64,000 bases of DNA from Escherichia coli (lineage in GTDB: Bacteria > Pseudomonadota > Gammaproteobacteria > Enterobacterales > Enterobacteriaceae). The stretch's first letter is position 1. Each line of letters opens with the position of its first letter. The notes below the pieces were generated by a model that saw nothing but the letters and a program-made list of their open reading frames with translations, was not told the DNA's origin and did no database searches. Shown here in pieces: positions 3,637-33,730 of this stretch. Location of the stretch: assembly GCF_003790525.1 (NCBI RefSeq), contig NZ_CP033632.1; one strand, written 5' to 3'. The position numbers and the translations under genes were made by a program.

Positions 3637-4456
3637 GGCACTGTTGCAAAGTTAGCGATGAGGCAGCCTTTTGTCTTATTCAAAGGCCTTACATTTCAAA
3701 AACTCTGCTTACCAGGCGCATTTCGCCCAGGGGATCACCATAATAAAATGCTGAGGCCTGGCCTTTGCGTAGTGCACGCATCACCTCAATACCTTTGATG
3801 GTGGCGTAAGCCGTCTTCATGGATTTAAATCCCAGCGTGGCGTTGATTATCCGTTTCAGTTTGCCATGATCGCATTCAATCACGTTGTTCCGGTACTTAA
3901 TCTGTCGGTGTTCAACGTCAGACGGGCACCGGCCTTCGCGTTTGAGCAGAGCAAGCGCGCGACCATAGGCGGGCGCTTTATCCGTGTTGATGAATCGTGG
4001 GATCTGCCACTTCTTCACGTTGTTGAGGATTTTACCCAGAAACCGGTATGCAGCTTTGCTGTTACGACGGGAGGAGAGATAAAAATCGACAGTGCGGCCC
4101 CGGCTGTCGACGGCCCGGTACAGATACGCCCAGCGGCCATTGACCTTCACGTAGGTTTCATCCATGTGCCACGGGCAAAGATCGGAAGGGTTACGCCAGT
4201 ACCAGCGCAGCCGTTTTTCCATTTCAGGCGCATAACGCTGAACCCAGCGGTAAATCGTGGAGTGATCGACATTCACTCCGCGTTCAGCCAGCATCTCCTG
4301 CAGCTCACGGTAACTGATGCCGTATTTGCAGTACCAGCGTACGGCCCACAGAATGATGTCACGCTGAAAATGCCGGCCTTTGAATGGGTTCATGTGCAGC
4401 TCCATCAGCAAAAGGGGATGATAAGTTTATCACCACCGACTATTTGCAACAGTGCC
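3637..4456 (-). mobile_element. IS26: IS26 copy 2
   Basis: 820 bp with terminal IRs. Confidence 0.97.
3689..4411 (-). CDS. tnp26: IS26 transposase Tnp26, Asn184 allele
   Basis: ORF translation identical to copy 1. Confidence 0.95.
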   Translation of the reverse strand: MLMELHMNPFKGRHFQRDIILWAVRWYCKYGISYRELQEMLAERGVNVDHSTIYRWVQRYAPEMEKRLRWYWRNPSDLCPWHMDETYVKVNGRWAYLYRAVDSRGRTVDFYLSSRRNSKAAYRFLGKILNNVKKWQIPRFINTDKAPAYGRALALLKREGRCPSDVEHRQIKYRNNVIECDHGKLKRIINATLGFKSMKTAYATIKGIEVMRALRKGQASAFYYGDPLGEMRLVSRVFEM

Positions 4457-4517
4457 CTATAAAGAACTAAAGAAATGAAGATACAAAGATACGAATATCT
4501 GAATAAAAACAGAAAAA

Positions 4518-4637
4518 TGCGTACCCATCCACCTTTCAGTGCGTACCCATCCACCTTTCAGTGCGCAGCCATCCACCTTTCATGAAAATTACAGTGCGTA
4601 CCCATCCACCTTTCAGTGCGTACCCATCCACCTTTCA
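4518..4637. repeat. Five direct ~22-bp iterons (consensus tgcgtacccatccacctttcag) in blocks of 3 and 2
   Basis: Tandem direct repeats read directly in the sequence. Confidence 0.85.
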
Positions 4638-4806
4638 TTTTGAGGCGACAAAAAACAACACCTATCTTAATGAAATTATTGATAAAAAAACTGGCACAAT
4701 GTTTGCAGAATAAGTTAGAGTAAGTTAAAGATCTTAAAGTAGATCTACCGATCTACATTTAAGATCTTAAAAACAAGAAGTTTAATAAGCAAAAAAACAC
4801 AAAAAA

Positions 4807-4861
4807 TCTGTGGATAACTTTGCTCAAAACAAAAAATTCACACTACCTGTGGATAACTTTG
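4807..4861. promoter_or_regulatory. Two 16-bp direct repeats (ctgtggataactttgc), each containing a DnaA-box-like tgtggataa
   Basis: Repeats at 4807..4822 and 4846..4861, next to an AT-rich tract and the iterons. Confidence 0.6.
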
Positions 4862-5499
4862 CGTAAACCCAGAGGACAGATCACTCTGAACCAAGACAAC
4901 CACACATAAAAACAATATGCTCGCTTTTTAACCACTGCGCGTAATTGCCTGATGTTATCCCTGTGCTGTTCCGCTTCCTCGCTCACTAACTCGCTACACT
5001 CGGTCGTTCGGCTGCGGCGAGCGGTGTCTCCTTTCTCAAAACCAGAAGAGTTCAGATCATACGATCCGTTGATTGATCCTTTTTGGATCTTTCACTGAGA
5101 AGCCCTGAATCGCTTTCTAACGCTTTGTTCGATGTAACCATGAGGAAAACCATGTGAAATCGAAAAAATCGCTCAGAATGCGATACAGCGCGTTTTAGAG
5201 GGTATTTACAAAACAGTCGTTGCCTTGAGGAAATTTTGATCAAGATTGAACTCCTATCCGGATCATGGCAACAGATCACAGCAACAAGGCCGCTAAAAAG
5301 CGTTGAGCGGCGTTAAAAACCGTTAAACCGTAGCTGACTATAACGAAACGGGAAAAAACGCTCAGAACGCGTTACAGAGCGTTTTAAGGCGATGTCGGAA
5401 AGAGCCATACCTCACCTGTTCTGATGTTTTTCTCAACACAAGCACTTTTAAGAGTACTTTTAAAGATGCTATTATGCCAATAAGACAAGCGGAGGACTT

Positions 5500-5751
5500 A
5501 TGAGCTATCAAATTCTGACAACCACAGCGGCCAGTATTACTGACCTGAAAAAAAATCCTATGGGAACCGTAGCTGAAGGTGAAGGGGACGCTGTTGCGAT
5601 CCTGAACCGAAACGAACCGGCGTTCTATTGCGTTCCACCAAAACTTTACGCCTACTATCGGGAACTCGCTGAAGATGCTGAGTTAAACGCTGTTGCTGAT
5701 GAGCGCATGAAAAACCCGGAAATTGTGAAGGTTAACCTGGATGACCTATGA
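5500..5751 (+). CDS. Type II antitoxin (StbD/RelB-like, Phd/YefM-type), 83 aa
   Basis: Small acidic protein overlapping a RelE/ParE-like toxin gene by 11 bp. Confidence 0.65.
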   Translation: MSYQILTTTAASITDLKKNPMGTVAEGEGDAVAILNRNEPAFYCVPPKLYAYYRELAEDAELNAVADERMKNPEIVKVNLDDL

Positions 5752-6022
5752 ACTGGCTTTTGACCGCAGAGCACTGAAGGAATGGCAGAAACTCGGCCAC
5801 ACCATCCGTGAACAATTCAAAAAGAAGCTGGCAGAACGGCTGGAAAATCCACGCGTACCCGCAGCCCGGTTACATGGTCATGCTGATCGCTATAAAATCA
5901 AACTTCGTGCATCTGGCTACAGACTTGTATATCAAGTCATTGATGAGAAAGTCGTTTTACTCGTTATTGCTGTTGGAAGAAGGGAAAGCAGCGAAGTTTA
6001 TCAGATTGCAGATATGCGCTGA
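5741..6022 (+). CDS. RelE/ParE-family toxin (StbE-like), 93 aa
   Basis: Translation ...RLHGHADRYKIKLRASGYRLVYQVIDEKVVLLVIAVGRRESSEVY is typical of RelE/ParE. Confidence 0.75.
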   Translation: MTYELAFDRRALKEWQKLGHTIREQFKKKLAERLENPRVPAARLHGHADRYKIKLRASGYRLVYQVIDEKVVLLVIAVGRRESSEVYQIADMR

Positions 6023-6208
6023 ACTGAAACCCGCCCCGTAATTCGCGGCTGCAGCCGCTCAGACGCGCAGATGCTACACACCGTCACGGCGTACCGTTCG
6101 CAAGCTTACGCGCTAACTGCGAAAGGCTAATTGCGTGTTGTTAGTCCGGTAATGGGCTTTGCAGGGAGGGGGGATGTCCCTGATCTTAATTAAGCTGGTT
6201 TGTTTCCG

Positions 6209-6350
6209 GGCACTGTTGCAAAGTTAGCGATGAGGCAGCCTTTTGTCTTATTCAAAGGCCTTACATTTCAAAAACTCTGCTTACCAGGCGCATTTCGCCT
6301 AGGGGATCACCATAATAAAATGCTGAGGCCTGGCCTTTGCGTAGTGCACG
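6209..6350 (-). mobile_element. IS26: IS26 stub (142 bp of the end distal to the tnp start)
   Basis: Matches 3637..3778 with one SNP (t at 6300); homology ends abruptly at 6350. Confidence 0.85.
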
Positions 6351-6518
6351 TATAGGAAATTGAAAAACCAGTCGATACCATTGTCCACGCCTTATGCCAC
6401 GTGAGCCTTTCTGCTTTTCCCACCACTCCGGTGGTTTCCCTCTCTGTATGGTCGATTTTTATACCGTAACAGGCTGTTTTTTATACTTTCACCGATTCCC
6501 GGGCACACTTAGCCTGTG

Positions 6519-7718
6519 TCAGGCCGGCATATACCTCAGTAGACTGATATCCCGCGCGTTTTTCTTCAGCCCTGATACATTCAGCCCCGCAATGGCCCGG
6601 CGGTATACCATCCGGCAGCCACACAGCACGCATTCGAACGGGTCACGACTCAGGAACTGTTTCACCATTTGTGCATAGCACACTTTCGCCACTGGTTCCG
6701 GTTTATCCATCCCCAGTGCACGGTACACCTGCGGCAGCTTCTCTCCACACACACGGTTGGCAAGGAACCCGAAGTACCTCACCATCTTAAAAAACTTCTC
6801 CGGGATGTGCTGTTTCAGCCTCGCGACCAGCTCACGCTGTGTCAGCGTTTCCGTCGCCGTTTCTCCCGTTTTGTGGTCCAGGTAACGGAAGCTCAGGCTT
6901 GCCCCTCCGTTGTAATGAGCCAGTCGGGAAGCCGCTATTGGTGGCTTCTTCAGATAACGACCCAGGTAGCGTGCCGTATTCCGCCCTCCGGCTGTCTTCT
7001 TCGACATGTACACATGCCAGTATTTTCCGCCGGATTTCAGCACCAGGCTTCTCCACTGTGATTCCGTCGTGATATGTGACAACGACTCCGGCATTGCCAT
7101 CCCCTCTGACCACGCTTTCAGAAGCAGCTGCCGCATATTCCACATCCACCGTGAACGCATCGCGTCTTTCAGGAAGCTCAGCTTTTTCCACTGACCATGC
7201 TTATTCAGACCTCCACAGGTTACAGACACATGTACATGCGGATGCCAGTTGAGACGACGGCCATACGTGTGGATGGCGCAGAAGATACCGGGTTCCAGCC
7301 CCCGTTTTCGGGCGGCATACAGCAGATTCTCCACCGCCAGACGGCACACGTCATTCAGCAGCCAGCGGTTGCTTTCGAACACCGGCCACAGCGTGTCCGG
7401 CAGGGTGAAGACCAGATGTACCCAGTCGCAGTCAGGAAGACGATTCAGCTGTGTTGCTGTCCACAGGTCTGTGGCCTTCTTTCCGCAGGACGGGCAGGCA
7501 CGGCTGCCGCATGAGTTGGTCAGGTACTTTACGTGCTGACAGTCCGGGTTATCACACCCGAACTCTTTTACACCCAGTATCCGTGTGCCGCAGGCCAGCA
7601 TTTTGGTGACGGCTTCAACCTCGATATCGCGCAGACCGCCCGCATCCAGGAAGGACGTCCAGCACTGGTTGGCTGTGAACAGACGTTTCAGAGGGCGGGG
7701 AGTAAAACCGGACAACAT
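6519..7718 (-). CDS. IS91-family (HUH rolling-circle) transposase, 399 aa
   Basis: N-terminal Cys cluster CDNPDCQHVKYLTNSCGSRACPSCGKK and IS91-like body, recalled not searched. Confidence 0.65.
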   Translation of the reverse strand: MLSGFTPRPLKRLFTANQCWTSFLDAGGLRDIEVEAVTKMLACGTRILGVKEFGCDNPDCQHVKYLTNSCGSRACPSCGKKATDLWTATQLNRLPDCDWVHLVFTLPDTLWPVFESNRWLLNDVCRLAVENLLYAARKRGLEPGIFCAIHTYGRRLNWHPHVHVSVTCGGLNKHGQWKKLSFLKDAMRSRWMWNMRQLLLKAWSEGMAMPESLSHITTESQWRSLVLKSGGKYWHVYMSKKTAGGRNTARYLGRYLKKPPIAASRLAHYNGGASLSFRYLDHKTGETATETLTQRELVARLKQHIPEKFFKMVRYFGFLANRVCGEKLPQVYRALGMDKPEPVAKVCYAQMVKQFLSRDPFECVLCGCRMVYRRAIAGLNVSGLKKNARDISLLRYMPA

Positions 7719-11950: not shown

Positions 11951-14900
11951 CTAGGCGGGCAGATCCTCCTGGACCGGCTTCCTGCGGGTCACCAGTTTCC
12001 GTAGCGTCACGTAAAACACCGGCGTCAGGAACAGACCGAAGAGCGTCACGCCCAGCATCCCGGAGAACACCGTGATCCCGGTGACGCCGCGGACTTCCGC
12101 CCCCGCGCCGTGGCCGAGGATCAGCGGAATGGTCCCGGCGATAAAGGCGATGGAGGTCATCACGATCGGGCGCAGACGCAGGCGGCATGCCTCCAGCGCC
12201 GCTTCCATGATGCCTTTCCCCTGGATCTCCAGCTCGCGGGCAAACTCGACGATCAGAATGGCGTTTTTACAGGCCAGGCCCATCAGGACCACCAGACCCA
12301 CCTGCACGAAGACGTTGTTATCGCCCCCGGTCAGCCAGACGCCAAACAGCGCGGAGAGCATCGTCATCGGTACGATAAGGATCACCGCCAGCGGCAGGGT
12401 CCAGCTTTCATACAGCGCGGCCAGTACGAGGAATGCCAGCAGCACCGCCACCGGGAAGACGATCAGCGCCGTGTTGCCCTGGGTGGCCTGCTGGAAGCTG
12501 AGATCCGTCCACTCAATATTCATCCCATTCGGCAGGATCTGCTTCGACAGCTCTTCCAGATGCGTCATCGCCTGCGAAGAAGAGAGGACCCGCGGATCGG
12601 CATCGCCAATCAGGTCCGCCGCCGGATAACCGTTGTAGCGGATCACCGGATCCGGCCCGTAGGTGGTACTGATATTCACCATACTGCCGATCGGTACCAT
12701 TTCGCCCTGATTATTGCGGGTGCGCAGATTGGCGATATCTTCCACGCTCTCGCGGTATGGTCCGTCAGCCTGGGCCATCACGCGCCAGGTACGCCCGAAC
12801 TGGTTAAAGTCATTGACATAAGACGAGCCGAGATAGGTCTGCAGCGTACCGAACAGATCGGTTAGCGATACCCCCTGCGCTTTCGCCTTATCGCGATCGA
12901 CCTGCACGTCCAGCTGCGGCACGTTAGCCTGGTAAGTCGAGATCGGGAAGTGCATCCCCGGCGTCTGCATAATCGCCCCGGACATCGCATTCACCGCGCT
13001 TTGCAGCGCGCCATAGCCCAGCCCTCCGCGATCCTGGATGTACAGGGAGTAGCCGGAACCCTGACCCAGACCTAAAATCGGCGGCGGCAGGATGGAAAAG
13101 CCAAAGCCCTGCTGGATTTGCGCGATTTTGGCGTTGATCTCCGCGTTAATTTCCGCCGCCGTGTGTTTGCGCTGGTCGAACGGTTTCAGGCCAAAAAAGA
13201 CCGTCCCGGTATTCGGCGTGTTGGTGAACTGCAGCGCGTTAAGCCCCGGGAAAGCGACCGCATAGTCGACCCCTTCGGTATTCATCCCGATCTCGCTCAT
13301 TTTGCGGATCACCGCGTCGGTGCGCGCCAGCGACGACCCTTCCGGCATCTTCACGCCGCCAATGAGATACAGCTTATCCTGGGTGGGAATAAACCCGCCG
13401 GGGACGACTTTAAACATCACCCCAGCGGCGCAGAGCAGCAGCAGGTACACCGCAAACACTGCGCCACGGCGTCCAAGCGTTTTGCCTACCAGTCCCTGAT
13501 AGCCGTTCGAGCTGCGCAGGAAAAAGCGGTTAAACGGACGGAAAATCCAGCCAAACAGGCGATCGATCAGCCGGGTAGGGAGGTCTTTCTTCGCGCCGTG
13601 CGGCTTTAACAGCAGGGCCGCCAGCGCCGGGGAGAGCGTCAGCGAGTTGATGGCCGAGATCACCGTCGAGATGGCGATGGTCACCGCGAACTGTTTGTAG
13701 AACTGGCCGGTGACCCCGGAGAGAAACGCCATCGGCACGAACACCGCACACAGCACCAGCGCAATGGCGATAATCGGCCCGGAGACCTCACGCATCGCCT
13801 GATGCGCCGCGGCAAGCGGCGCAAGCCCCTCTTCGATATTACGCTCGACGTTCTCCACCACCACGATGGCGTCGTCCACCACGATACCGATAGCCAGTAC
13901 CAGCCCGAACAGGCTCAGGGTATTCAGCGAGAAGCCCAGCAGATAGAGAATGCTGAAGGTACCCACCACCGATACCGGCACAGCGATCAACGGGATAATC
14001 GACGCGCGCCAGGTCTGCAGGAACAGGATCACTACCAGCACCACCAGCACTACCGCCTCCAGCAGCGTCTGCACCACCGCGCGGATGGAGTCGCGGACGA
14101 AAACCGTCGGGTCGTACGGCGCCGCCCATTGCATATCTTCCGGGAAGCGGGTGGCCAGCTCGGCCATTTTGGCGCGTACCGCGTTCGACAGATCGATGGC
14201 GTTAGCGCCGGGTGACTGGAAGATACCGATCCCGACCGCATCCTTATTGTTGAGCTGGGAGCGCAGCGCATAGCTACCGGAACCCATCTCGATGCGCGCC
14301 ACGTCGCGCAGGCGGACCAGCGAGCCATCCTGCGCCGTTTTCAGAATGATATTGCCAAACTCTTCTTCGGTATGCAGACGGCCCTGGGCGTTAATGGAGA
14401 TCAGGAAATCGCTCTCCTGCGGCAGCGGCTCGGCGCCAAGCTGTCCGGCAGACACCTGGACGTTTTGCTCCTGCATCGCCGTCACCACATCCGAGGCCGT
14501 CAGACCGCGGGCAGCGACCTTATTGGGATCCAGCCAGACGCGCATCGCATATTCACCGGAGCCAAAAATCTGGATCTGGCCGACGCCGGGCAGGCGCGCC
14601 AGCTCATCCTTCACTTTCAGCGTGGCGTAGTTGCGCATATACAGCGAGTCGTACTTCCCGCCGGGGGAGAACAGATGCACCACCAGGGTCAGCGTCGGAG
14701 ACTGCTTCTGGGTGGTGATCCCCAGACGGCGTACATCCTCCGGCAGACGCGCTTCGGCCTGCGCGACGCGGTTCTGCACCTGAACCTGCGCCTGATCCGG
14801 GTCGGTACCCGGGCGGAAGGTGACGGTGGTGACCAGCACGCCGTCGGAGCCGGCGACCGATTTCATGTACATCATGTTTTCAACGCCGTTGATCGCTTCC

Positions 14901-15103
14901 TCCAGCGGCGTCGCCACGGTCTCGGCAATCACTTTCGGGTTGGCGCCGGGATACTCCGCGCGCACCTGGACGCTCGGCGGGACGACATCCGGATATTCGC
15001 TCACCGGCAGCAGTGGGATAGCGATTAACCCGGTGATAAAAATTAAAATCGACAGCACCGCGGCGAAAATCGGCCTGTCGATAAAAAAGCGGGAAAAGTC
15101 CAT
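11951..15103 (-). CDS. oqxB: RND efflux transporter OqxB, 1050 aa
   Basis: AcrB-like 1050-aa translation; paired with the adaptor gene. Confidence 0.9.
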   Translation of the reverse strand: MDFSRFFIDRPIFAAVLSILIFITGLIAIPLLPVSEYPDVVPPSVQVRAEYPGANPKVIAETVATPLEEAINGVENMMYMKSVAGSDGVLVTTVTFRPGTDPDQAQVQVQNRVAQAEARLPEDVRRLGITTQKQSPTLTLVVHLFSPGGKYDSLYMRNYATLKVKDELARLPGVGQIQIFGSGEYAMRVWLDPNKVAARGLTASDVVTAMQEQNVQVSAGQLGAEPLPQESDFLISINAQGRLHTEEEFGNIILKTAQDGSLVRLRDVARIEMGSGSYALRSQLNNKDAVGIGIFQSPGANAIDLSNAVRAKMAELATRFPEDMQWAAPYDPTVFVRDSIRAVVQTLLEAVVLVVLVVILFLQTWRASIIPLIAVPVSVVGTFSILYLLGFSLNTLSLFGLVLAIGIVVDDAIVVVENVERNIEEGLAPLAAAHQAMREVSGPIIAIALVLCAVFVPMAFLSGVTGQFYKQFAVTIAISTVISAINSLTLSPALAALLLKPHGAKKDLPTRLIDRLFGWIFRPFNRFFLRSSNGYQGLVGKTLGRRGAVFAVYLLLLCAAGVMFKVVPGGFIPTQDKLYLIGGVKMPEGSSLARTDAVIRKMSEIGMNTEGVDYAVAFPGLNALQFTNTPNTGTVFFGLKPFDQRKHTAAEINAEINAKIAQIQQGFGFSILPPPILGLGQGSGYSLYIQDRGGLGYGALQSAVNAMSGAIMQTPGMHFPISTYQANVPQLDVQVDRDKAKAQGVSLTDLFGTLQTYLGSSYVNDFNQFGRTWRVMAQADGPYRESVEDIANLRTRNNQGEMVPIGSMVNISTTYGPDPVIRYNGYPAADLIGDADPRVLSSSQAMTHLEELSKQILPNGMNIEWTDLSFQQATQGNTALIVFPVAVLLAFLVLAALYESWTLPLAVILIVPMTMLSALFGVWLTGGDNNVFVQVGLVVLMGLACKNAILIVEFARELEIQGKGIMEAALEACRLRLRPIVMTSIAFIAGTIPLILGHGAGAEVRGVTGITVFSGMLGVTLFGLFLTPVFYVTLRKLVTRRKPVQEDLPA

Positions 15104-15126
15104 GTCTTGGATTCTCTGATTAGGGA

Positions 15127-16302
15127 TCAGTTAAGGGTGGCGCTGGAGGTCATGGCAACGGTTTTGGCGTTAACCGGCATACCCGGCATAAACACTTTTT
15201 GTAAGCCGTCGACGATGACGCTATCCCCAGGATTCAACCCCTTCTGAACGATGCGTAAACCGTCTGCCAGCCGCCCTGGGGTAATGTCGCGGCGCTGTGC
15301 TTTACCATCTTTATCAACGATATAGACGTATTTACGATCCTGATCGGTCAGTACCGCTTTGTCGTCGATCAGCGTGGCTTTGAACTCTGCGCTGCCCGGC
15401 AGACGCACGCGGGCAAACAGCCCCGGCGTGAACAGACGCTGCGAGTTATCCAGCAGCGCACGCATGCGGATGGTGCCGGTACTCGGCGTTAACTGATTAT
15501 CGAGAAAATCCACTTTGCCCTGGTGGGGGTAACCCTCCTCGCCCACCAGGCCAATCTCCACCGGGAGCGCCTGATTATCGCTGGACGCGCCTTGCCCGCG
15601 GCGGGCGAGGTTTTGATAGTGGAGGTAGGTTGACTCGTCGACGTCAAAGTAGACGTACACCGTCTTTTGCGAGACCAGGGTGGTGAGCACGCTGGCGGTG
15701 TCGCCCGCGGTGACCAGGTTACCGCTGGTGATCAGCGCCCGGCTGGCGCGGCCGTCAATAGGGGCGGTCACTTTGGTGAAGTCGAGGTTAAGCTGCGCGG
15801 CATCCACCGCCGCCTGCGCGGCGCGAATGTCGGCCTGCGCCTGAACCGCGGCTGACCGGCGCTGCTCCCACTCTTCACGGGAGACGAGGTTGGTATGGAC
15901 TAATTTATCGGTGCGGTTCGCCTCGCTTTGCGCGAGGCTGGCCTGCGTTTTGGCTCTTGCCAACGCCGCCTGCGCCTGCTCCAGCGCGGCGCGATAGGTT
16001 CTGTCATCTATCGTGAACAGCACCTGGCCCTTTTTCACCTCCTGGCCGTCAGTGTAATTCACTTTATCAATGTATCCCGAGACGCGAGGGCGAAGCTGAA
16101 CGCTCTCCACCGCTTCAATGCGACCGTTAAAACTATCCCACTGACTGATCGACTTCACCAGCACCTTAGCGGCGCTGACCGTCGGGGCGGGAGGCGCAGC
16201 ATTCTGTGCGACGCTGTCGTCGCAGCCGACGAGCAGAAAGGAGAGCATCATCGCGCCGAGCGCGGTCAGGTGAATGTTTCCCCAGGTTTTTTGCAGGCTC
16301 AT
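15127..16302 (-). CDS. oqxA: RND periplasmic adaptor OqxA, 391 aa
   Basis: Membrane-fusion-protein translation upstream of oqxB. Confidence 0.9.
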   Translation of the reverse strand: MSLQKTWGNIHLTALGAMMLSFLLVGCDDSVAQNAAPPAPTVSAAKVLVKSISQWDSFNGRIEAVESVQLRPRVSGYIDKVNYTDGQEVKKGQVLFTIDDRTYRAALEQAQAALARAKTQASLAQSEANRTDKLVHTNLVSREEWEQRRSAAVQAQADIRAAQAAVDAAQLNLDFTKVTAPIDGRASRALITSGNLVTAGDTASVLTTLVSQKTVYVYFDVDESTYLHYQNLARRGQGASSDNQALPVEIGLVGEEGYPHQGKVDFLDNQLTPSTGTIRMRALLDNSQRLFTPGLFARVRLPGSAEFKATLIDDKAVLTDQDRKYVYIVDKDGKAQRRDITPGRLADGLRIVQKGLNPGDSVIVDGLQKVFMPGMPVNAKTVAMTSSATLN

Positions 16303-30984: not shown

Positions 30985-31838
30985 TCACTATTACCAAAGA
31001 GCGACTGCTGACAATCAAGCAGTGGCGCGAAACATACGGACCTGATAGCAACGTTGTACTGCCAGCAGAAGAAGCGGAAGAACTGGCGCGTATCGTGCTG
31101 GCATCGCTGGAAGCAGAGCCTGTTCTGTATCAGTCCTGCACTCGCCCCACCTGGAATAGCGGTGTTCCGTGGACGGAATGGAAAGAACGTAGTCGTGAGT
31201 GCTACGAAGACGATTTGCGTTTTACAGACACGCCTGACCATGCCGGTTGGATATACAAATGTCGAAAACTATATACCACTCCGCCAGCGCCGATAGCGTT
31301 AGAGGCCATTGAAAACGCAATTGAATACATTCGTAGTATCGCTTTTCACATCGATGAAGACGATTACCACGGCAAACATATTGCGTATTTCATGCGACAA
31401 GCATTGGCCTGGCTGGAAGGGCATTCATGCAGCGACGACAGACTGGGTAAAGCCGACAATCAACCAGTACGCGGCAACCAGGCTGCCGAATCCAATCGCG
31501 GTAATGAGTGGACCGGCAATCCTGATATTGATAACGCAATCATCATGCTCGACCGCATAGATACGGCGGAAAGTTACGATGATGACCGTATTGAGGCTGT
31601 TAAGGCTGTTTTGCGTAGACTGGCAGGCAACTCTCCGGTAACTCCGGATGGTTGGATAAGCTGTAGTGAGCGAATGCCCCCTCAAGATGATTGGATTTTA
31701 ATTTATTCAAAGCACGGCGAGTATATGGCAGGACAGGTACAAGGGGAATACGTGGAGTTGAGCGACGGCACTTTATCGTGGTTAGGGAACGCCTTGTTCT
31801 GGATGCCGCTACCAGAACCGCCGCAGGAGGCGAAATGA
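30981..31838 (+). CDS. Phage protein with a DUF551-like C-terminal domain, 285 aa
   Basis: C-terminal GWISCSERMPPQDDWILIY...LSWLGNALFWMPLPEPP resembles DUF551. Confidence 0.5.
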   Translation: MITITKERLLTIKQWRETYGPDSNVVLPAEEAEELARIVLASLEAEPVLYQSCTRPTWNSGVPWTEWKERSRECYEDDLRFTDTPDHAGWIYKCRKLYTTPPAPIALEAIENAIEYIRSIAFHIDEDDYHGKHIAYFMRQALAWLEGHSCSDDRLGKADNQPVRGNQAAESNRGNEWTGNPDIDNAIIMLDRIDTAESYDDDRIEAVKAVLRRLAGNSPVTPDGWISCSERMPPQDDWILIYSKHGEYMAGQVQGEYVELSDGTLSWLGNALFWMPLPEPPQEAK

Positions 31839-32095
31839 TGGATGTAAAAGAGAAGGTTTTGCAGGTGATGCGTTCCCGGGCTGCCCTGCAAGATAAAGCT
31901 CTCGGCGGGGAATATCCATTCAGGATGGCAACCTGGAATCTGCGGTTGGCAATGGAGAAGGAATTTCCTGATGAAGAATGGCGTTCGGCAGATTTGCGCA
32001 AAATTCTTATGGAGCTGGCTAAAGACGGAACAGTATCCAAAGATACCCATGCCAGCCGGATTGGTCAGGCGGTATGGAGACTGGAGGTGAGGTAA
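31835..32095 (+). CDS. Hypothetical protein, 86 aa
   Basis: ATGA coupling to the upstream gene. Confidence 0.45.
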   Translation: MMDVKEKVLQVMRSRAALQDKALGGEYPFRMATWNLRLAMEKEFPDEEWRSADLRKILMELAKDGTVSKDTHASRIGQAVWRLEVR

Positions 32096-32376
32096 TGGCT
32101 AACCTGCAACTTGCCGTTAAAGGTGAATACTTCGATGCCATGATTCGCGGGGAGAAAACGGAAGAGTATCGCCTGTGTAATGACTACTGGAATAAGCGCC
32201 TCGTTAACCGTAAGTATTACCGCCTGATTATCACAAAGGGATATCCGAAGCGCGAAGACTTCAGTCGCAGAATTGACGTCCCGTATAACGGATATGAAAT
32301 AAAAACAATCACACATCCACACTTCGGTGATAAACCGGTAAAGGTGTTCGCGATAAAAGTGAAGATTAATAGCTAA
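32095..32376 (+). CDS. ASCH/PUA-like small protein, 93 aa
   Basis: N-terminal KGEYFDAMIRGEKTEEYR motif typical of ASCH-type domains. Confidence 0.45.
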   Translation: MANLQLAVKGEYFDAMIRGEKTEEYRLCNDYWNKRLVNRKYYRLIITKGYPKREDFSRRIDVPYNGYEIKTITHPHFGDKPVKVFAIKVKINS

Positions 32377-32399
32377 ATTTCAATTAACACGGAGTAATT

Positions 32400-32693
32400 A
32401 TGTGGCGCGGTAATAATCATGGCGGAAGTCAGATGATACTTACCGAATATACGTTCGACCACAAAACCAATAAATCACGTTCAGTATATTTGCTTCGGCA
32501 CAATAGCCGCGTAAGAAATACCGTTCTGGAGCAAAATCTGACCGTTGAAATGGATAATTTGGGAAACTTCAAGCCAACAATATCGCTTGATGATTTTCCG
32601 TGTGGTTTAAGCGAAAGAGAAGCAATGCTGAAATTAGCAGAATGGCTACAAAGATTAAGCATTGCTATTGAAGATAACTGGTCTGAACCTTAA
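32400..32693 (+). CDS. Hypothetical protein, 97 aa
   Basis: ORF with GGAG Shine-Dalgarno. Confidence 0.45.
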   Translation: MWRGNNHGGSQMILTEYTFDHKTNKSRSVYLLRHNSRVRNTVLEQNLTVEMDNLGNFKPTISLDDFPCGLSEREAMLKLAEWLQRLSIAIEDNWSEP

Positions 32694-32699
32694 ATTAAT

Positions 32700-33074
32700 A
32701 TGATGACACTAAAACATTTTCTTGACCGCCCATTATGGGCGGCAGCCGCAGGCTATGACTTTAATTATATGGATTGCATGTCTTATACTGCCAATGCATA
32801 CGACCATTCGTTCAGCCTGCTGTTTAATTCTTTAAGAATATTGCCGGAAACAGAAGTTGGAGAGCTTCATTTATGGATATTGGGCTTTATCGCGGCTGGA
32901 GTTGGTATTGCCGTATGGCCTTTTATTTTCTGGCTGGTGGCTGTTGTAGTGTGGTTTAAGTGCAAGACGTACCGGAAAAAGTATTTCTTAGGTGATGGAA
33001 TGACTGATATTGCCAAAATGAACATTGAAAAATGGACTAAGGAATGTGAAAAGAAATGGCGCAAAAAGAAATGA
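32700..33074 (+). CDS. Membrane protein, 124 aa, basic C-terminus
   Basis: Hydrophobic stretch LWILGFIAAGVGIAVWPFIFWLVAVVVWF. Confidence 0.5.
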   Translation: MMTLKHFLDRPLWAAAAGYDFNYMDCMSYTANAYDHSFSLLFNSLRILPETEVGELHLWILGFIAAGVGIAVWPFIFWLVAVVVWFKCKTYRKKYFLGDGMTDIAKMNIEKWTKECEKKWRKKK

Positions 33075-33730
33075 CTACTCTAACGACAGCATACTTACAG
33101 CAATTGGTATTTTTTGCAGGCGAGGCTACTTGTCATCCTGACGCAAACTATTTATTGGAATTTGAGAGGTTAGCGTCACCCGGTATCGTTCTGGAACTGG
33201 CCCAACAGGTGCTGGCCTTGAGACAAAAAGAGCAACATGAAAGTAATACGTGTAGATTGAATTTTGAGCAGTGGCTGGAACAGCAACGCGGGAAAATCGA
33301 TGTGGACTGTGGTTGTGTGTCCACTGAAACATTCATGCACTGGCTGCGGGTAGCTTACGAGGCTGGCAACTATCCGGATATTCCGGATAGTTCGGTGCCA
33401 GCGCCAGGAAAGGGCGTCACCGGTGAACGTATCCGCATTAAGCCGCATGTTTATCGCGAACTGGTTAACCGTCTCCACGATACAGCGATCAAGTGTGCTG
33501 GCACTCAGCAATTACGAGAAAGAATTAGCCGTGTTTTGGGCGACGTTATTACGCCATATCATCATAAACAAGCCGAGAAAAGCGGTCTGGAAAGGTGTCA
33601 TCTTGAGGCAGCATTAAACATTAAGCCGGGGCATACGCTAGGCATTATTGATGCACTGTTGGTTCATAAGATGGCCAGGGCTTTATTGTCGTTGGTGGAC
33701 GCTGGTGATACAAGCGAGGGTGAAGTATGA
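33056..33730 (+). CDS. Hypothetical protein, 224 aa
   Basis: ORF overlapping the upstream gene. Confidence 0.5.
   Translation: MAQKEMTTLTTAYLQQLVFFAGEATCHPDANYLLEFERLASPGIVLELAQQVLALRQKEQHESNTCRLNFEQWLEQQRGKIDVDCGCVSTETFMHWLRVAYEAGNYPDIPDSSVPAPGKGVTGERIRIKPHVYRELVNRLHDTAIKCAGTQQLRERISRVLGDVITPYHHKQAEKSGLERCHLEAALNIKPGHTLGIIDALLVHKMARALLSLVDAGDTSEGEV

What the first reader, a model, noticed from the sequence alone, without database searches (positions are those of the whole stretch)
5160..5400. Paired imperfect 40-bp direct repeats with internal dyad symmetry upstream of the toxin-antitoxin genes
aaaaatcgctcagaatgcgatacagcgcgttttagagg (about 5164..5201) and aaaaaacgctcagaacgcgttacagagcgttttaaggcg (about 5353..5391) are related sequences about 190 bp apart, with a gccgct...agcggc hairpin between them. 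This looks like an array of protein-binding sites (centromere-like, operator or resolution site) rather than coding sequence.
Basis: seen in the sequence. Interest (0 to 1): 0.3.

Follow-up and report, generated by a model that had tools for sequence, protein, structure and literature searches.

The report
Duplicated hairpin module beside IncX origin
The two 40-base repeats are real, but they belong to two diverged copies of a roughly 100-base hairpin-forming non-coding unit that sits beside the replication origin of IncX resistance plasmids (and also occurs in some phages), and they are not control sites for the neighbouring toxin-antitoxin genes; what the unit does is still unknown.

Summary
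Copies at 5156-5197 and 5345-5386 match at 35 of 42 positions, 189 bp apart; 200 shuffles reached at most 27. Each copy is the 3' part of a full unit of about 100 nt: unit 1 at 5095-5201 and unit 2 at 5293-5390.

The unit lies in a pir-less IncX1 origin fragment between IS26 copies. The order is iterons, DnaA boxes, a ColE1-type primosome-assembly-site homologue, a GATC cluster, the units, then stbDE.

One unit sits at the same position in IncX3, X4 and X5 plasmids, which carry other toxin-antitoxin genes or none. A degenerate version lies at the R6K gamma-origin enhancer. Related copies occur in an SSU5-like phage-plasmid and in phage contigs. No protein is shared between the phage and IncX contexts.

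The unit is a long imperfect hairpin whose stems show compensatory changes, followed by a sequence-conserved tail, WTACAGCKCGTTTTA. It has no Rfam match and no annotation in the records searched.

The likely StbD operator is a separate site at 5441-5475.

Best guess, at low confidence: a hairpin signal read by host replication machinery for DNA priming. Rivals are a host-protein site on duplex DNA and an RNA hairpin.

The parts
5095..5201 (.). Unit 1: a long imperfect hairpin (arms about 5102-5133 and 5160-5191, apex 5134-5159) followed by the conserved 3' tail ATACAGCGCGTTTTAGAGG.
   Evidence: CM R1 match of 36.4 bits, E about 1e-6. nhmmer E = 3e-33. As ssDNA it folds at -16.2 kcal/mol on the + strand (z -2.7) and -19.6 kcal/mol on the - strand (z -4.3). 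Covariation is shown.
5156..5197 (+). It is the 3' arm plus tail of unit 1.
   Evidence: the repeat finder family D1; chance test.
5202..5292 (.). Spacer between the units, with three GATC sites (5238, 5261, 5274) and a GTTGCC...GGCAAC inverted repeat. It is conserved in IncX1, in IncX4 strain TO60 and in locus L006.
5293..5390 (.). Unit 2: a second, diverged copy of the whole unit. It is 67% identical to unit 1 and about 69-70% identical to the IncX3/Kp36 type. Its long hairpin is degraded (12 of 18 scored pairs are Watson-Crick). Its own 5' hairpin is at 5289-5311.
   Evidence: CM R1 match of 26.9 bits, E about 3e-4. nhmmer E = 4e-11. Pair counts; identities.
5345..5386 (+). It is the 3' part of unit 2 and forms a near-perfect palindrome, AAAACGCTC-N13-GAGCGTTTT.
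4965..5030 (-). Homologue of the ColE1-family primosome assembly site region. The GAAGCGG-containing strand is the - strand. This is context that belongs to the same conserved cassette as unit 1.
   Evidence: 91-97% identity to more than 5000 plasmids, mostly small ColE1-like ones. It is conserved together with unit 1 between IncX1, X3, X4 and X5. Assigning it as a pas rests on my knowledge of pBR322/ColE1.
5055..5089 (.). Cluster of four GATC sites (GATCATACGATCC...GATCCTTTTTGGATC) between the pas homologue and unit 1. The core GATCCTTTTNNGATC is conserved in IncX1, X3, X4 and X5.
4792..4867 (.). Two 37-nt direct repeats, each carrying a DnaA box TGTGGATAA (4809, 4848).
4518..4637 (.). Five 22-bp iterons of the IncX1 gamma-type origin. 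The initiator gene pir is missing, cut off by IS26, whose end lies at 4443-4456.
   Evidence: comparison with intact IncX1 plasmids.
5441..5475 (+). Predicted stbDE promoter (TTAAGA-16-TATTAT) overlapped by the 12-bp repeats AGCACTTTTAAG and AGTACTTTTAAA.
   Evidence: (family D15). It is conserved in L006. The operator role is inferred.
5500..6022 (+). stbD (5500-5751) and stbE (5741-6022), a toxin-antitoxin pair.
   Evidence: ORFs. StbE matches Pfam ParE_toxin at 3e-14. Annotated in homologous plasmids.

Best explanation
The two repeats are the 3' portions of two tandem, anciently diverged copies of a conserved IncX origin-flank unit. The unit is a hairpin of about 100 nt followed by an invariant tail, WTACAGCKCGTTTTA.

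I think the unit works as folded single-stranded DNA, as a signal read by host replication proteins (primase or a primosome) to start DNA chains next to the iteron origin. In that view it forms a cluster of single-strand initiation signals together with the adjacent ColE1-type primosome assembly site. It would serve vegetative replication and/or complementary-strand synthesis after conjugative entry.

Unit 2 is a decaying or redundant second copy. It was retained at the junction between the replicon and its variable cargo, which here is stbDE.

Shown: the duplication, the unit's boundaries, its conservation and position, the hairpin covariation, and its independence from the TA genes. Inferred: that it acts in single-stranded form, and that priming is its function. 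In this particular window the whole origin fragment is a pir-less relic between IS26 copies, so the unit is probably idle here.
For: (1) Full-length duplication is shown.

(2) The position is fixed. The unit always follows the iterons, DnaA boxes, pas homologue and GATC cluster in IncX1, X3, X4, X5 and a 36-kb Klebsiella plasmid.

(3) The pas-GATC-unit cassette is 84-88% identical in DNA between IncX1 and IncX4, although their initiator proteins are only about 35% identical.

(4) The hairpin covaries. In 19 sequences, 81% of cells are paired against 72% in shuffles (0 of 500 shuffles reach the observed value). There are 39 double-change cells against 15 in shuffles (0 of 500). Nine of 21 pairs show compensatory changes, and slid controls pair at only 26-47%. 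Apical stems differ completely between lineages: TTCGAT/ATCGAA, ACCCG/CGGGT, ACCCC/GGGGT and GCGCTTTTTAT/ATAAAAAGCGC.

(5) The layout of variable apex, covarying stem and invariant flanking tail is, from my knowledge of RSF1010 ssiA/ssiB, G4 oric and oriT sites, what hairpin-plus-tail recognition signals look like.

(6) The immediate neighbour is a homologue of the ColE1 primosome assembly site.

(7) Related units occur in an SSU5-like phage-plasmid, next to iteron-like direct repeats, and in phage contigs. No protein is shared with the IncX loci, which points to host machinery.

(8) CAG on the + strand, which is the primase start triplet CTG on the - strand, is invariant in the tail. The 12-15 conserved bases that follow it match the length of a primase primer. 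This last point is my inference.
Against: There is no experiment, and no sequence similarity to any known initiation signal that I could test. Frpo, ssiD and ssiE gave only chance matches, and the IncFII region downstream of oriR gave no model hit.

If CTG on the - strand is the start site, the hairpin lies on the opposite side of it from the arrangement I recall for phage G4.

Pairing shows no strand bias: 13 G.T against 18 A.C. No single functional strand is therefore indicated.

The covariation alignment was fitted to the structure and contains only about five independent lineages.

R6K, the best-studied IncX plasmid, has only a degenerate version (about 15 bits, E about 0.5) and lacks the pas and the GATC cluster.

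In phages the motif often abuts gene ends, which would also suit a transcript-level role.
Confidence: 0.33

Rival explanations
1. The unit is a duplex-DNA site for a host protein that helps the origin, such as DNA gyrase or a nucleoid protein. It would then resemble the protein-less par locus of pSC101, which has direct and inverted repeats beside an iteron origin, or the R6K gamma-origin enhancer. The two copies would form a small array.
For: The 3' motif is conserved as sequence and not as a covarying small hairpin. It occurs in either orientation relative to flanking genes. No mobile-element protein is shared across contexts. The pairing statistics show no strand bias. The R6K counterpart overlaps the segment that I recognise as the 106-bp enhancer of the gamma origin (the enhancer's limits are from my knowledge of the R6K literature).
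Against: Compensatory changes keep a 20-30-bp hairpin while the apical sequence changes completely, which a fixed protein would not require. I found no match to any binding consensus I checked by eye (DnaA, IHF, LexA, ArgR, CRP, Fis). Plasmids with one unit are the majority, so an array is not needed.
Confidence: 0.2
2. The unit acts in RNA, as a hairpin in a transcript of the + strand. It could be a weak or bidirectional terminator or insulator between the origin and the downstream genes, or a leader element for them. The left arm and the tail (both GCGTTTTA-like) would compete for the same partner, TTAGAAYGC.
For: As RNA, the + strand of the motif folds at -7 to -16 kcal/mol, against -2 to -11 for the - strand in most cases. 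The natural variants AGAA, AAAA and AGAG all keep pairing with UUUU only on the + strand. A terminator-like hairpin followed by a T run is flagged on the - strand of unit 1. In phage contigs the motif lies at gene ends, in six families directly after a stop codon. A runs and T runs flank the core.
Against: No sigma-70-like promoter lies upstream of the units on either strand in the window. No Rfam family matches. The G+C core of the small hairpin is only 4-5 pairs and the T run only 4-5 bases, which is poor for an intrinsic terminator. The small hairpins show no covariation. In the six phage families where the motif follows a stop codon, the transcript would carry the weaker, - strand version.
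Confidence: 0.2
3. This is the reader's proposal: the repeats are binding sites for a plasmid protein, either the StbD/StbE operator, a ParG-type centromere or a resolvase res site.
For: The repeats have dyad symmetry, are paired, are non-coding and lie 110-340 bp upstream of stbD.
Against: The unit is kept where stbDE is absent or replaced. It also occurs in phages, with no shared proteins. A separate operator-like repeat sits on the stbDE promoter. The units contain no ACTC boxes. The recombinase gene is distant.
Confidence: 0.04
4. The second copy has no function of its own. The units mark the seam where different IncX lineages and cargo modules recombine, and the tandem pair is a by-product of such a recombination. 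It persists because it is linked to stbDE.
For: Homology between lineages ends at the 3' edge of a unit: at 5198 in IncX4 mcr-1 plasmids and at 5378 in IncX4 strain TO60. One contig carries a unit 1/unit 2 fusion with the interval deleted (L024). Unit 2 is as close to IncX3/Kp36-type units as to unit 1. Its hairpin is degraded. Most IncX types manage with one unit.
Against: The two-unit arrangement is stable in roughly 800-975 IncX1-derived records at 95-100% identity. This view explains the duplication but not what the unit itself does.
Confidence: 0.15

Closest known systems
phiX174-type primosome assembly sites (pas/n' sites) of ColE1-family plasmids
   Same: Both are non-coding, hairpin-forming sequences beside a plasmid origin that would be read by host proteins on single-stranded DNA. 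A true homologue of the ColE1 pas lies about 70 bp from unit 1 and travels with it in the same conserved cassette.
   Different: The unit itself has no detectable similarity to ColE1-like plasmids; a BLAST of 5090-5440 hits only IncX-related records and one phage-like record. It carries GAAGCCC, not the GAAGCGG hexamer that I recall for n' sites. PriA dependence is untested.
Primase-dependent G sites (G4 oric; G sites of R1, R100 and ColIb-P9)
   Same: Conserved blocks flank a sequence-variable internal domain. The primase triplet CTG is invariant on the - strand.
   Different: The covariance model finds nothing in the IncFII region downstream of oriR. The hairpin lies 3' of the CTG on the template, whereas in G4 the hairpins lie 5' of it (from memory). 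Primase dependence is untested.
Frpo / ssiD-type single-stranded DNA promoters of plasmid leading regions
   Same: Both are long imperfect hairpins in a plasmid strand, upstream of genes oriented like leading-region genes. In R6K the gene order is pir, gamma origin, unit, dnaJ-like gene, small ORFs, alpha oriT region, ddp1/ddp2. The leading-region reading of that order is my inference.
   Different: There is no sequence similarity. The stems contain no -35/-10 hexamers. Frpo elements are about 300 nt long and G+C-rich. The unit also occurs in phage-plasmids and phages, where conjugative entry is not expected.
R6K gamma-origin enhancer (106 bp) and pSC101 par locus
   Same: All are protein-less cis elements directly beside an iteron origin, next to DnaA boxes. 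The R6K counterpart of the unit (CACTGAGAAGCCCTTAGAGCC...CTTAGAAGGCGTTTTAGAAGCCC) starts inside the classic enhancer fragment. pSC101 par likewise combines direct and inverted repeats (from memory).
   Different: The R6K version is degenerate (about 15 bits). As I recall the published work, enhancer functions were mapped to DnaA box 1 and to a 20-bp stb segment at the other end. There is no sequence similarity to pSC101 par that I know of, and gyrase binding is untested.
Phd/YefM-type antitoxin operators
   Same: Both are short dyad or direct repeats upstream of a type II toxin-antitoxin operon.
   Different: Such operators overlap the promoter.

Membership tests
Type II TA operator (StbD/StbE autoregulation) | The site overlaps or abuts the TA promoter. 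| tested here: not met
   The predicted promoter is at 5448-5475. The repeats end at 5197 and 5386. A separate 12-bp repeat pair lies on the promoter (family D15).
Type II TA operator (StbD/StbE autoregulation) | The site co-occurs with its cognate TA genes. | tested here: not met
   The unit is present in IncX4 plasmids with another TA pair or none, and in IncX3, IncX5 and Kp36 plasmids and phage contigs without stbDE.
ParFG centromere (parH-type) | An array of ACTC tetramer boxes bound by ParG (the feature as I recall it for TP228). | tested here: not met
   There is one ACTC (5250, in the spacer) and no GAGT in 5090-5400.
Resolvase res site | The site is adjacent to its recombinase gene and is conserved together with it. 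| tested here: not met
   The R6K recombinase gene lies about 4 kb from the unit, beyond pir, bis and ddp3. No recombinase lies near the phage copies.
Frpo / ssDNA promoter | Sequence similarity to known Frpo/ssi elements. | tested here: not met
   blastn of ColIb Frpo1, F ssiD and F ssiE (sequences from PMC11541004, supplement 4) against 4900-5450 gave only 7-21-nt matches with E of 0.15 or more.
Frpo / ssDNA promoter | -35 and -10 hexamers reconstituted in the hairpin stem. | tested here: not met
   The consensus scan finds no promoter-like site in 5095-5400 on either strand. Inspection by eye found only 3-5 of 6 matches, without correct spacing.
Primase G site | A 5'-CTG-3' start triplet at a fixed place beside the folded domain. 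| tested here: inconclusive
   CAG on the + strand (CTG on the - strand) is invariant in 22 of 22 motif sequences, although 11 of them were retrieved with a pattern that required it. Its position relative to the hairpin differs from G4 as I recall it.
Primase G site | Primer synthesis by DnaG alone on SSB-coated single strands. | not testable with these tools
   This needs an in vitro priming assay.
Primase G site | Similarity to plasmid G sites (blocks A-C of R1, R100 and ColIb-P9). | tested here: not met
   Covariance model R1 run with filters off over an IncFII repA-oriR-downstream locus gave nothing above 7.6 bits.
phiX174-type pas | A stable hairpin in the single strand. | tested here: met
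   The ssDNA fold has z -2.7 on the + strand and -4.3 on the - strand. The hairpin is kept by compensatory changes.
phiX174-type pas | PriA-dependent primosome assembly. | not testable with these tools
   This needs an M13 ori-minus rescue assay in priA+ and priA- hosts, or reconstitution in vitro.
Intrinsic terminator | A G+C-rich stem of at least 5 pairs immediately followed by a U tract. | tested here: inconclusive
   Only the - strand of unit 1 passes the scan (5-pair stem, T6). The + strand core is 4 pairs followed by U4. The small hairpins show no covariation.
Any Rfam RNA family | A match to a curated covariance model. | tested here: not met
   No match at E of 1 or less in 4000-7000 on either strand.

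The most novel reading that the evidence does not exclude
The unit is a previously undescribed, widely distributed class of hairpin-plus-tail signal. It would be read by host machinery without any element-encoded partner, and shared by IncX resistance plasmids (including the NDM-carrying IncX3 and mcr-1-carrying IncX4 backbones), SSU5-like phage-plasmids and unrelated phages. One possibility is a new type of single-strand DNA initiation signal. Another is a nick site or recombination hotspot that sets the boundary where replicon and cargo modules are exchanged.
Probability: 0.2. Interest if true: 0.6.

Novelty: new variant of a known kind. Interest (0 to 1): 0.4.

Why it matters
IncX3 and IncX4 plasmids are major vehicles of NDM carbapenemase and mcr-1 colistin-resistance genes. 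A conserved cis element beside their origin is unannotated in more than 2000 sequenced plasmids. It is an untested determinant of their replication or establishment, and a possible target or diagnostic marker.

The same motif in phage-plasmids and phages suggests a general host-read signal that has not been catalogued. The result also corrects an easy mis-annotation: the repeats upstream of stbDE are not its operator.

For this particular window the practical significance is small. The origin fragment has lost its initiator gene and is a passenger in an IS26-bounded resistance region.

Tried and rejected
- **Rfam scan of 4000-7000:** nothing at E of 1 or less.
- **Operator, centromere or res site:** rejected by comparison across plasmids (see the membership tests).
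- **IncX oriT:** the literature places the alpha and beta oriT in long inverted repeats elsewhere (PMC3332091, PMC3402527). The covariance model gave no hit in the R6K ddp1-proximal or ddp3-proximal regions.
- **Frpo/ssiD/ssiE:** no similarity.
- **IncFII G-site region:** no model hit. I first looked for an IncFII replicon inside the window (31800-33100), but that region is not oriR.
- **Scan of 100,044 reference genomes** with GATCCTTTTNNGATC-N8-38-AAGCCCT: only three of the 26 hit loci carry the unit (L024, L037, L044; all IncX1-like sequences); the other 23, including the Serratia chromosome locus L020, show no unit, so no new diversity was gained.
- **RNAalifold on a plain MAFFT alignment** missed the long hairpin, because the IncX1-type and IncX3-type units misalign. 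A covariance-model alignment was used instead.
- **Small-hairpin models of the 40-nt repeat:** no covariation.
- **Shared-protein search between contexts:** none found. Pfam on the phage-plasmid neighbours was uninformative.
- **Binding consensus sequences checked by eye** (LexA, IHF, ArgR, CRP, Cra, sigma-54, sigma-28, lambda nut boxA/boxB, RfaH ops, attC, CRISPR I-F repeat, N15 telO): partial resemblances only, all judged to be chance.
- **Papers that might describe the region** (Stalker and Helinski 1985; Hayes 1998; Norman 2008; Nomura 1991; Tanaka 1994) are not in the library.

Full report
**1. What is in the window**

The stretch 4457-6208 is a fragment of an IncX1 plasmid backbone bounded by IS26 ends (inverted repeats at 4443-4456 and 6209). 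Megablast finds the 1741-bp segment at 100% identity in many multiresistance plasmids. In intact IncX1 plasmids it lies directly upstream of the initiator gene pir, which is followed by bis and ddp3.

Reading left to right, the fragment holds:
- five 22-bp iterons (4518-4637);
- an A+T-rich stretch with GATC palindromes;
- two DnaA boxes inside 37-nt direct repeats (4809, 4848);
- a 65-bp segment that is 91-97% identical to more than 5000 plasmids, mostly small ColE1-like ones. I recognise it as the ColE1/pBR322 primosome assembly site region, with the GAAGCGG strand being the - strand;
- a cluster of four GATC sites (5055-5089);
- the region in question;
- stbD and stbE. StbE matches ParE_toxin at 3e-14.

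Here pir has been removed by IS26, so the origin is a relic. PMC6052338 describes the same IncX1 segment, with an IS26/IS1294 boundary, in F33:A-:B- plasmids.

**2.

The two sequences are at 5156-5197 and 5345-5386, with 35 of 42 positions identical and a spacing of 189 bp. No shuffle out of 200 exceeded 27 of 42. The GCCGCT/AGCGGC hairpin is at 5289-5311.

**3. The repeats are the tips of two larger units**

A profile made only from homologues of the first copy's neighbourhood aligns to 5291-5389 over nearly its full length (E = 4e-11). A covariance model built only from IncX3/X5-type sequences recovers 5095-5201 (36 bits) and 5293-5390 (27 bits) as full-length matches.

The window therefore has two tandem units of about 100 nt, separated by a 91-bp spacer. 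The units are 67% identical to each other. Unit 2 is about as close to the IncX3/Kp36 type (69-70%) as it is to unit 1.

**4. The unit belongs to the replicon, not to the toxin-antitoxin genes**

One unit sits at the same place, after the pas homologue and the GATC cluster, in these plasmids:
- IncX4 mcr-1-type plasmids with no TA downstream (L004);
- an IncX4 plasmid with a different TA pair (L003);
- an IncX1 variant followed by mobC and nikAB (L005);
- IncX3 (L013), IncX5 (L009, L017, L045) and untyped Klebsiella and E. coli plasmids (L008, L016, L048).

The initiator proteins of IncX1 and IncX4 are about 35% identical, yet the pas-GATC-unit cassette is 84-88% identical in DNA. Together the two BLAST families cover about 2500 plasmid records, and none annotates the unit.

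The stbDE promoter predicted at 5448-5475 carries its own 12-bp repeats. These are the natural operator candidate.

**5. Anatomy and conservation pattern**

Unit 1 folds as one long imperfect hairpin. As ssDNA it folds at -16.2 kcal/mol on the + strand (z -2.7) and -19.6 kcal/mol on the - strand (z -4.3).

Across 19 distinct sequences aligned to the model:
- 81% of pair cells are standard pairs, against 72% in shuffles (0 of 500 shuffles reach the observed value) and 26-47% when partners are slid;
- 9 of 21 pairs show changes on both sides;
- 39 cells are double changes, against 15 expected (0 of 500).

The apical stem is rewritten between lineages: TTCGAT/ATCGAA, ACCCG/CGGGT, ACCCC/GGGGT and GCGCTTTTTAT/ATAAAAAGCGC. 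Loop length and sequence vary freely.

There are caveats. The alignment is fitted to the structure, and only about five lineages are independent. G.T (13) and A.C (18) mismatches are balanced, so no strand is favoured.

Its two possible internal hairpins show no covariation. Its 5' half is the 3' arm of the long hairpin, and its 3' half (WTACAGCKCGTTTTA) is an unpaired tail.

Unit 2 keeps the tail and a perfect small palindrome. Its long hairpin, however, is degraded: 12 of 18 scored pairs are Watson-Crick.

**6. Beyond IncX**

R6K has a degenerate counterpart (CACTGAGAAGCCCTTAGAGCC...CTTAGAAGGCGTTTTAGAAGCCC). It lies directly after DnaA box 1, overlaps what I know as the 106-bp gamma-origin enhancer, and has no pas or GATC cluster.

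A 112-kb Klebsiella oxytoca phage-plasmid, with capsid, portal, terminase and ParB genes, carries a clean version. This copy scores 41 bits, has a perfect 17-bp stem, and sits in a long intergenic region beside CCATTTAGCGTTAAAG direct repeats. A 222-kb phage-like Enterobacter record has a 44-nt, 91% match.

A pattern scan of viral contigs found 26 loci in about 14 families. Six of the loci are full model matches, and several others share identity beyond the forced pattern. In all of them the motif is intergenic, in either orientation relative to the flanking ORFs. In six families it directly abuts a stop codon on the opposite strand.

No protein near the phage copies resembles any protein near the IncX copies.

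**7. Mosaic junctions**

Homology between IncX lineages stops at the 3' edge of a unit:
- at 5198 in IncX4 mcr-1 plasmids;
- at 5378, just after TTACAGA, in IncX4 strain TO60.

One contig (L024) has a unit 1/unit 2 fusion with the interval deleted. The units thus mark the seam between the replicon and its variable cargo. They can recombine with each other, and this is a plausible origin of the tandem pair.

**8. Mechanism**

The following is shown:
- a duplicated, conserved, non-coding origin-flank unit;
- a hairpin maintained by compensatory change, with an invariant tail;
- independence from stbDE;
- no dedicated protein partner.

From this I infer that the unit is read by host machinery, most likely in folded single-stranded form. 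A variable apex, a covarying stem and an invariant tail is the signature of hairpin-plus-tail recognition.

Two further points make a DNA-priming (single-strand initiation) role my best guess, at a confidence of about one third. Its immediate neighbour is a primosome assembly site homologue. The tail also contains the invariant primase triplet (CTG on the - strand), followed by 12-15 conserved bases.

In R6K the genes to the right of the unit (a dnaJ-like gene and small ORFs) point toward the ddp1/ddp2 relaxase-gene end, where the alpha oriT is placed (PMC3332091). This is the arrangement expected of a leading region, with the - strand as the transferred strand. A role in complementary-strand synthesis after transfer is therefore possible, but this rests on inference alone.

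Against this view:
- there is no similarity to Frpo, ssiD or ssiE or to the IncFII region downstream of oriR;
- the geometry differs from G4 as I recall it;
- there is no strand bias;
- R6K has only a degenerate copy.

The rivals are:
- a duplex site for a host protein, like pSC101 par or an origin enhancer (0.2);
- an RNA hairpin, terminator or leader (0.2), supported by the much better + strand RNA folds and by gene-end positions in phages, but lacking a promoter, a Rfam match and covariation;
- the second copy being a recombination by-product with no function of its own (0.15);

**9. Novelty and verdict**

I found no description of this unit in the searchable literature, in Rfam, or in the annotation of about 2500 plasmid and 899 E. 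coli records. The older papers most likely to mention it are not held.

It is best filed as a new variant of a known kind: an origin-flank hairpin or initiation-signal-like element. I rate interest as moderate at 0.4. The unit is widespread in clinically important plasmids and reaches unexpectedly into phages, but its function is unproven, and in this window it sits in a dead origin fragment.

Noticed in passing
window 4965-5030: A 65-bp segment is 91-97% identical to more than 5000 plasmids, mostly small ColE1-like mobilizable ones. I recognise it as the ColE1/pBR322 primosome assembly site region. Its presence inside iteron-type IncX1, X3, X4 and X5 origins, but not in R6K, is not annotated anywhere.
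   Followed up: partly
window 5055-5089: A cluster of four GATC sites with the conserved core GATCCTTTTNNGATC is shared by IncX1, X3, X4 and X5 between the pas homologue and the hairpin unit. It could be a SeqA/Dam-controlled or unwinding element.
   Followed up: partly
window 4443-4456 and 6209: The IncX1 origin-stbDE fragment is cut by IS26 just left of the iterons, so pir is missing. On the right it is bounded by an IS26 end followed by IS1294. The origin is a non-functional passenger unless the initiator protein is supplied from elsewhere on the plasmid.
   Followed up: partly
window 5441-5475: The 12-bp direct repeats AGCACTTTTAAG and AGTACTTTTAAA overlap the predicted stbDE promoter (TTAAGA-16-TATTAT). 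This is the likely StbD operator, and it is conserved in the diverged stbDE locus of L006.
   Followed up: partly
L047 2433-2539 (K. oxytoca phage-plasmid NZ_CP138770.1); L055, L056, L059, L061, L072, L078: An SSU5-like phage-plasmid family carries a clean copy of the hairpin unit with a perfect 17-bp stem. It sits in a 600-bp intergenic region that also holds three terminator-like hairpins and two CCATTTAGCGTTAAAG direct repeats. This region could be a replication origin.
   Followed up: partly
L049 2440-2545 / L062 (222-kb phage-like record NZ_CP134650.1); L054, L058, L065, L068, L071, L075, L077: The 30-40-nt motif CTCAGAAYGCNWTACAGCGCGTTTTAGAGG recurs almost unchanged in intergenic regions of unrelated phage contigs. 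In some of them no model match to the long hairpin was found, and the fold showed only a short hairpin within the motif.
   Followed up: partly
L024 3742-3848: A contig labelled as a Lachnospiraceae MAG carries IncX1 sequence with a unit 1/unit 2 fusion, in which the 189-bp interval is deleted. This shows recombination between the two units, and probably contamination of the MAG by an enterobacterial plasmid.
   Followed up: no
L050 7010-7100 (R6K NZ_LT827129.1, - strand): The classic R6K gamma-origin enhancer fragment used in pir-dependent vectors contains the 5' two-thirds of a degenerate copy of the unit. The motif AGAAGCCCT occurs twice, about 80 nt apart.
   Followed up: partly
window 5136-5158: The apex of unit 1 reads ACCATGAGGAAAACCATGTGA. 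That is a Shine-Dalgarno-like GAGGA followed by ATG-TGA (a start-stop mini-ORF), and it resembles the MS2 coat-protein operator hairpin. It is present only in IncX1/X4-type units and is probably chance.
   Followed up: no
window 1-64000: At least six complete IS26 copies are present (240-aa transposase ORFs at 917, 3689, 10578, 16604, 23844 and 27161). The window also holds IS6100-like, IS1294 and IS50 transposases and a 1050-aa plus 391-aa efflux pair of the size of OqxB/OqxA at 11951-16302 (identified by size and context only, not by a search). This is a heavily rearranged multiresistance region like those of X1-F33:A-:B- plasmids (PMC6052338).
   Followed up: no
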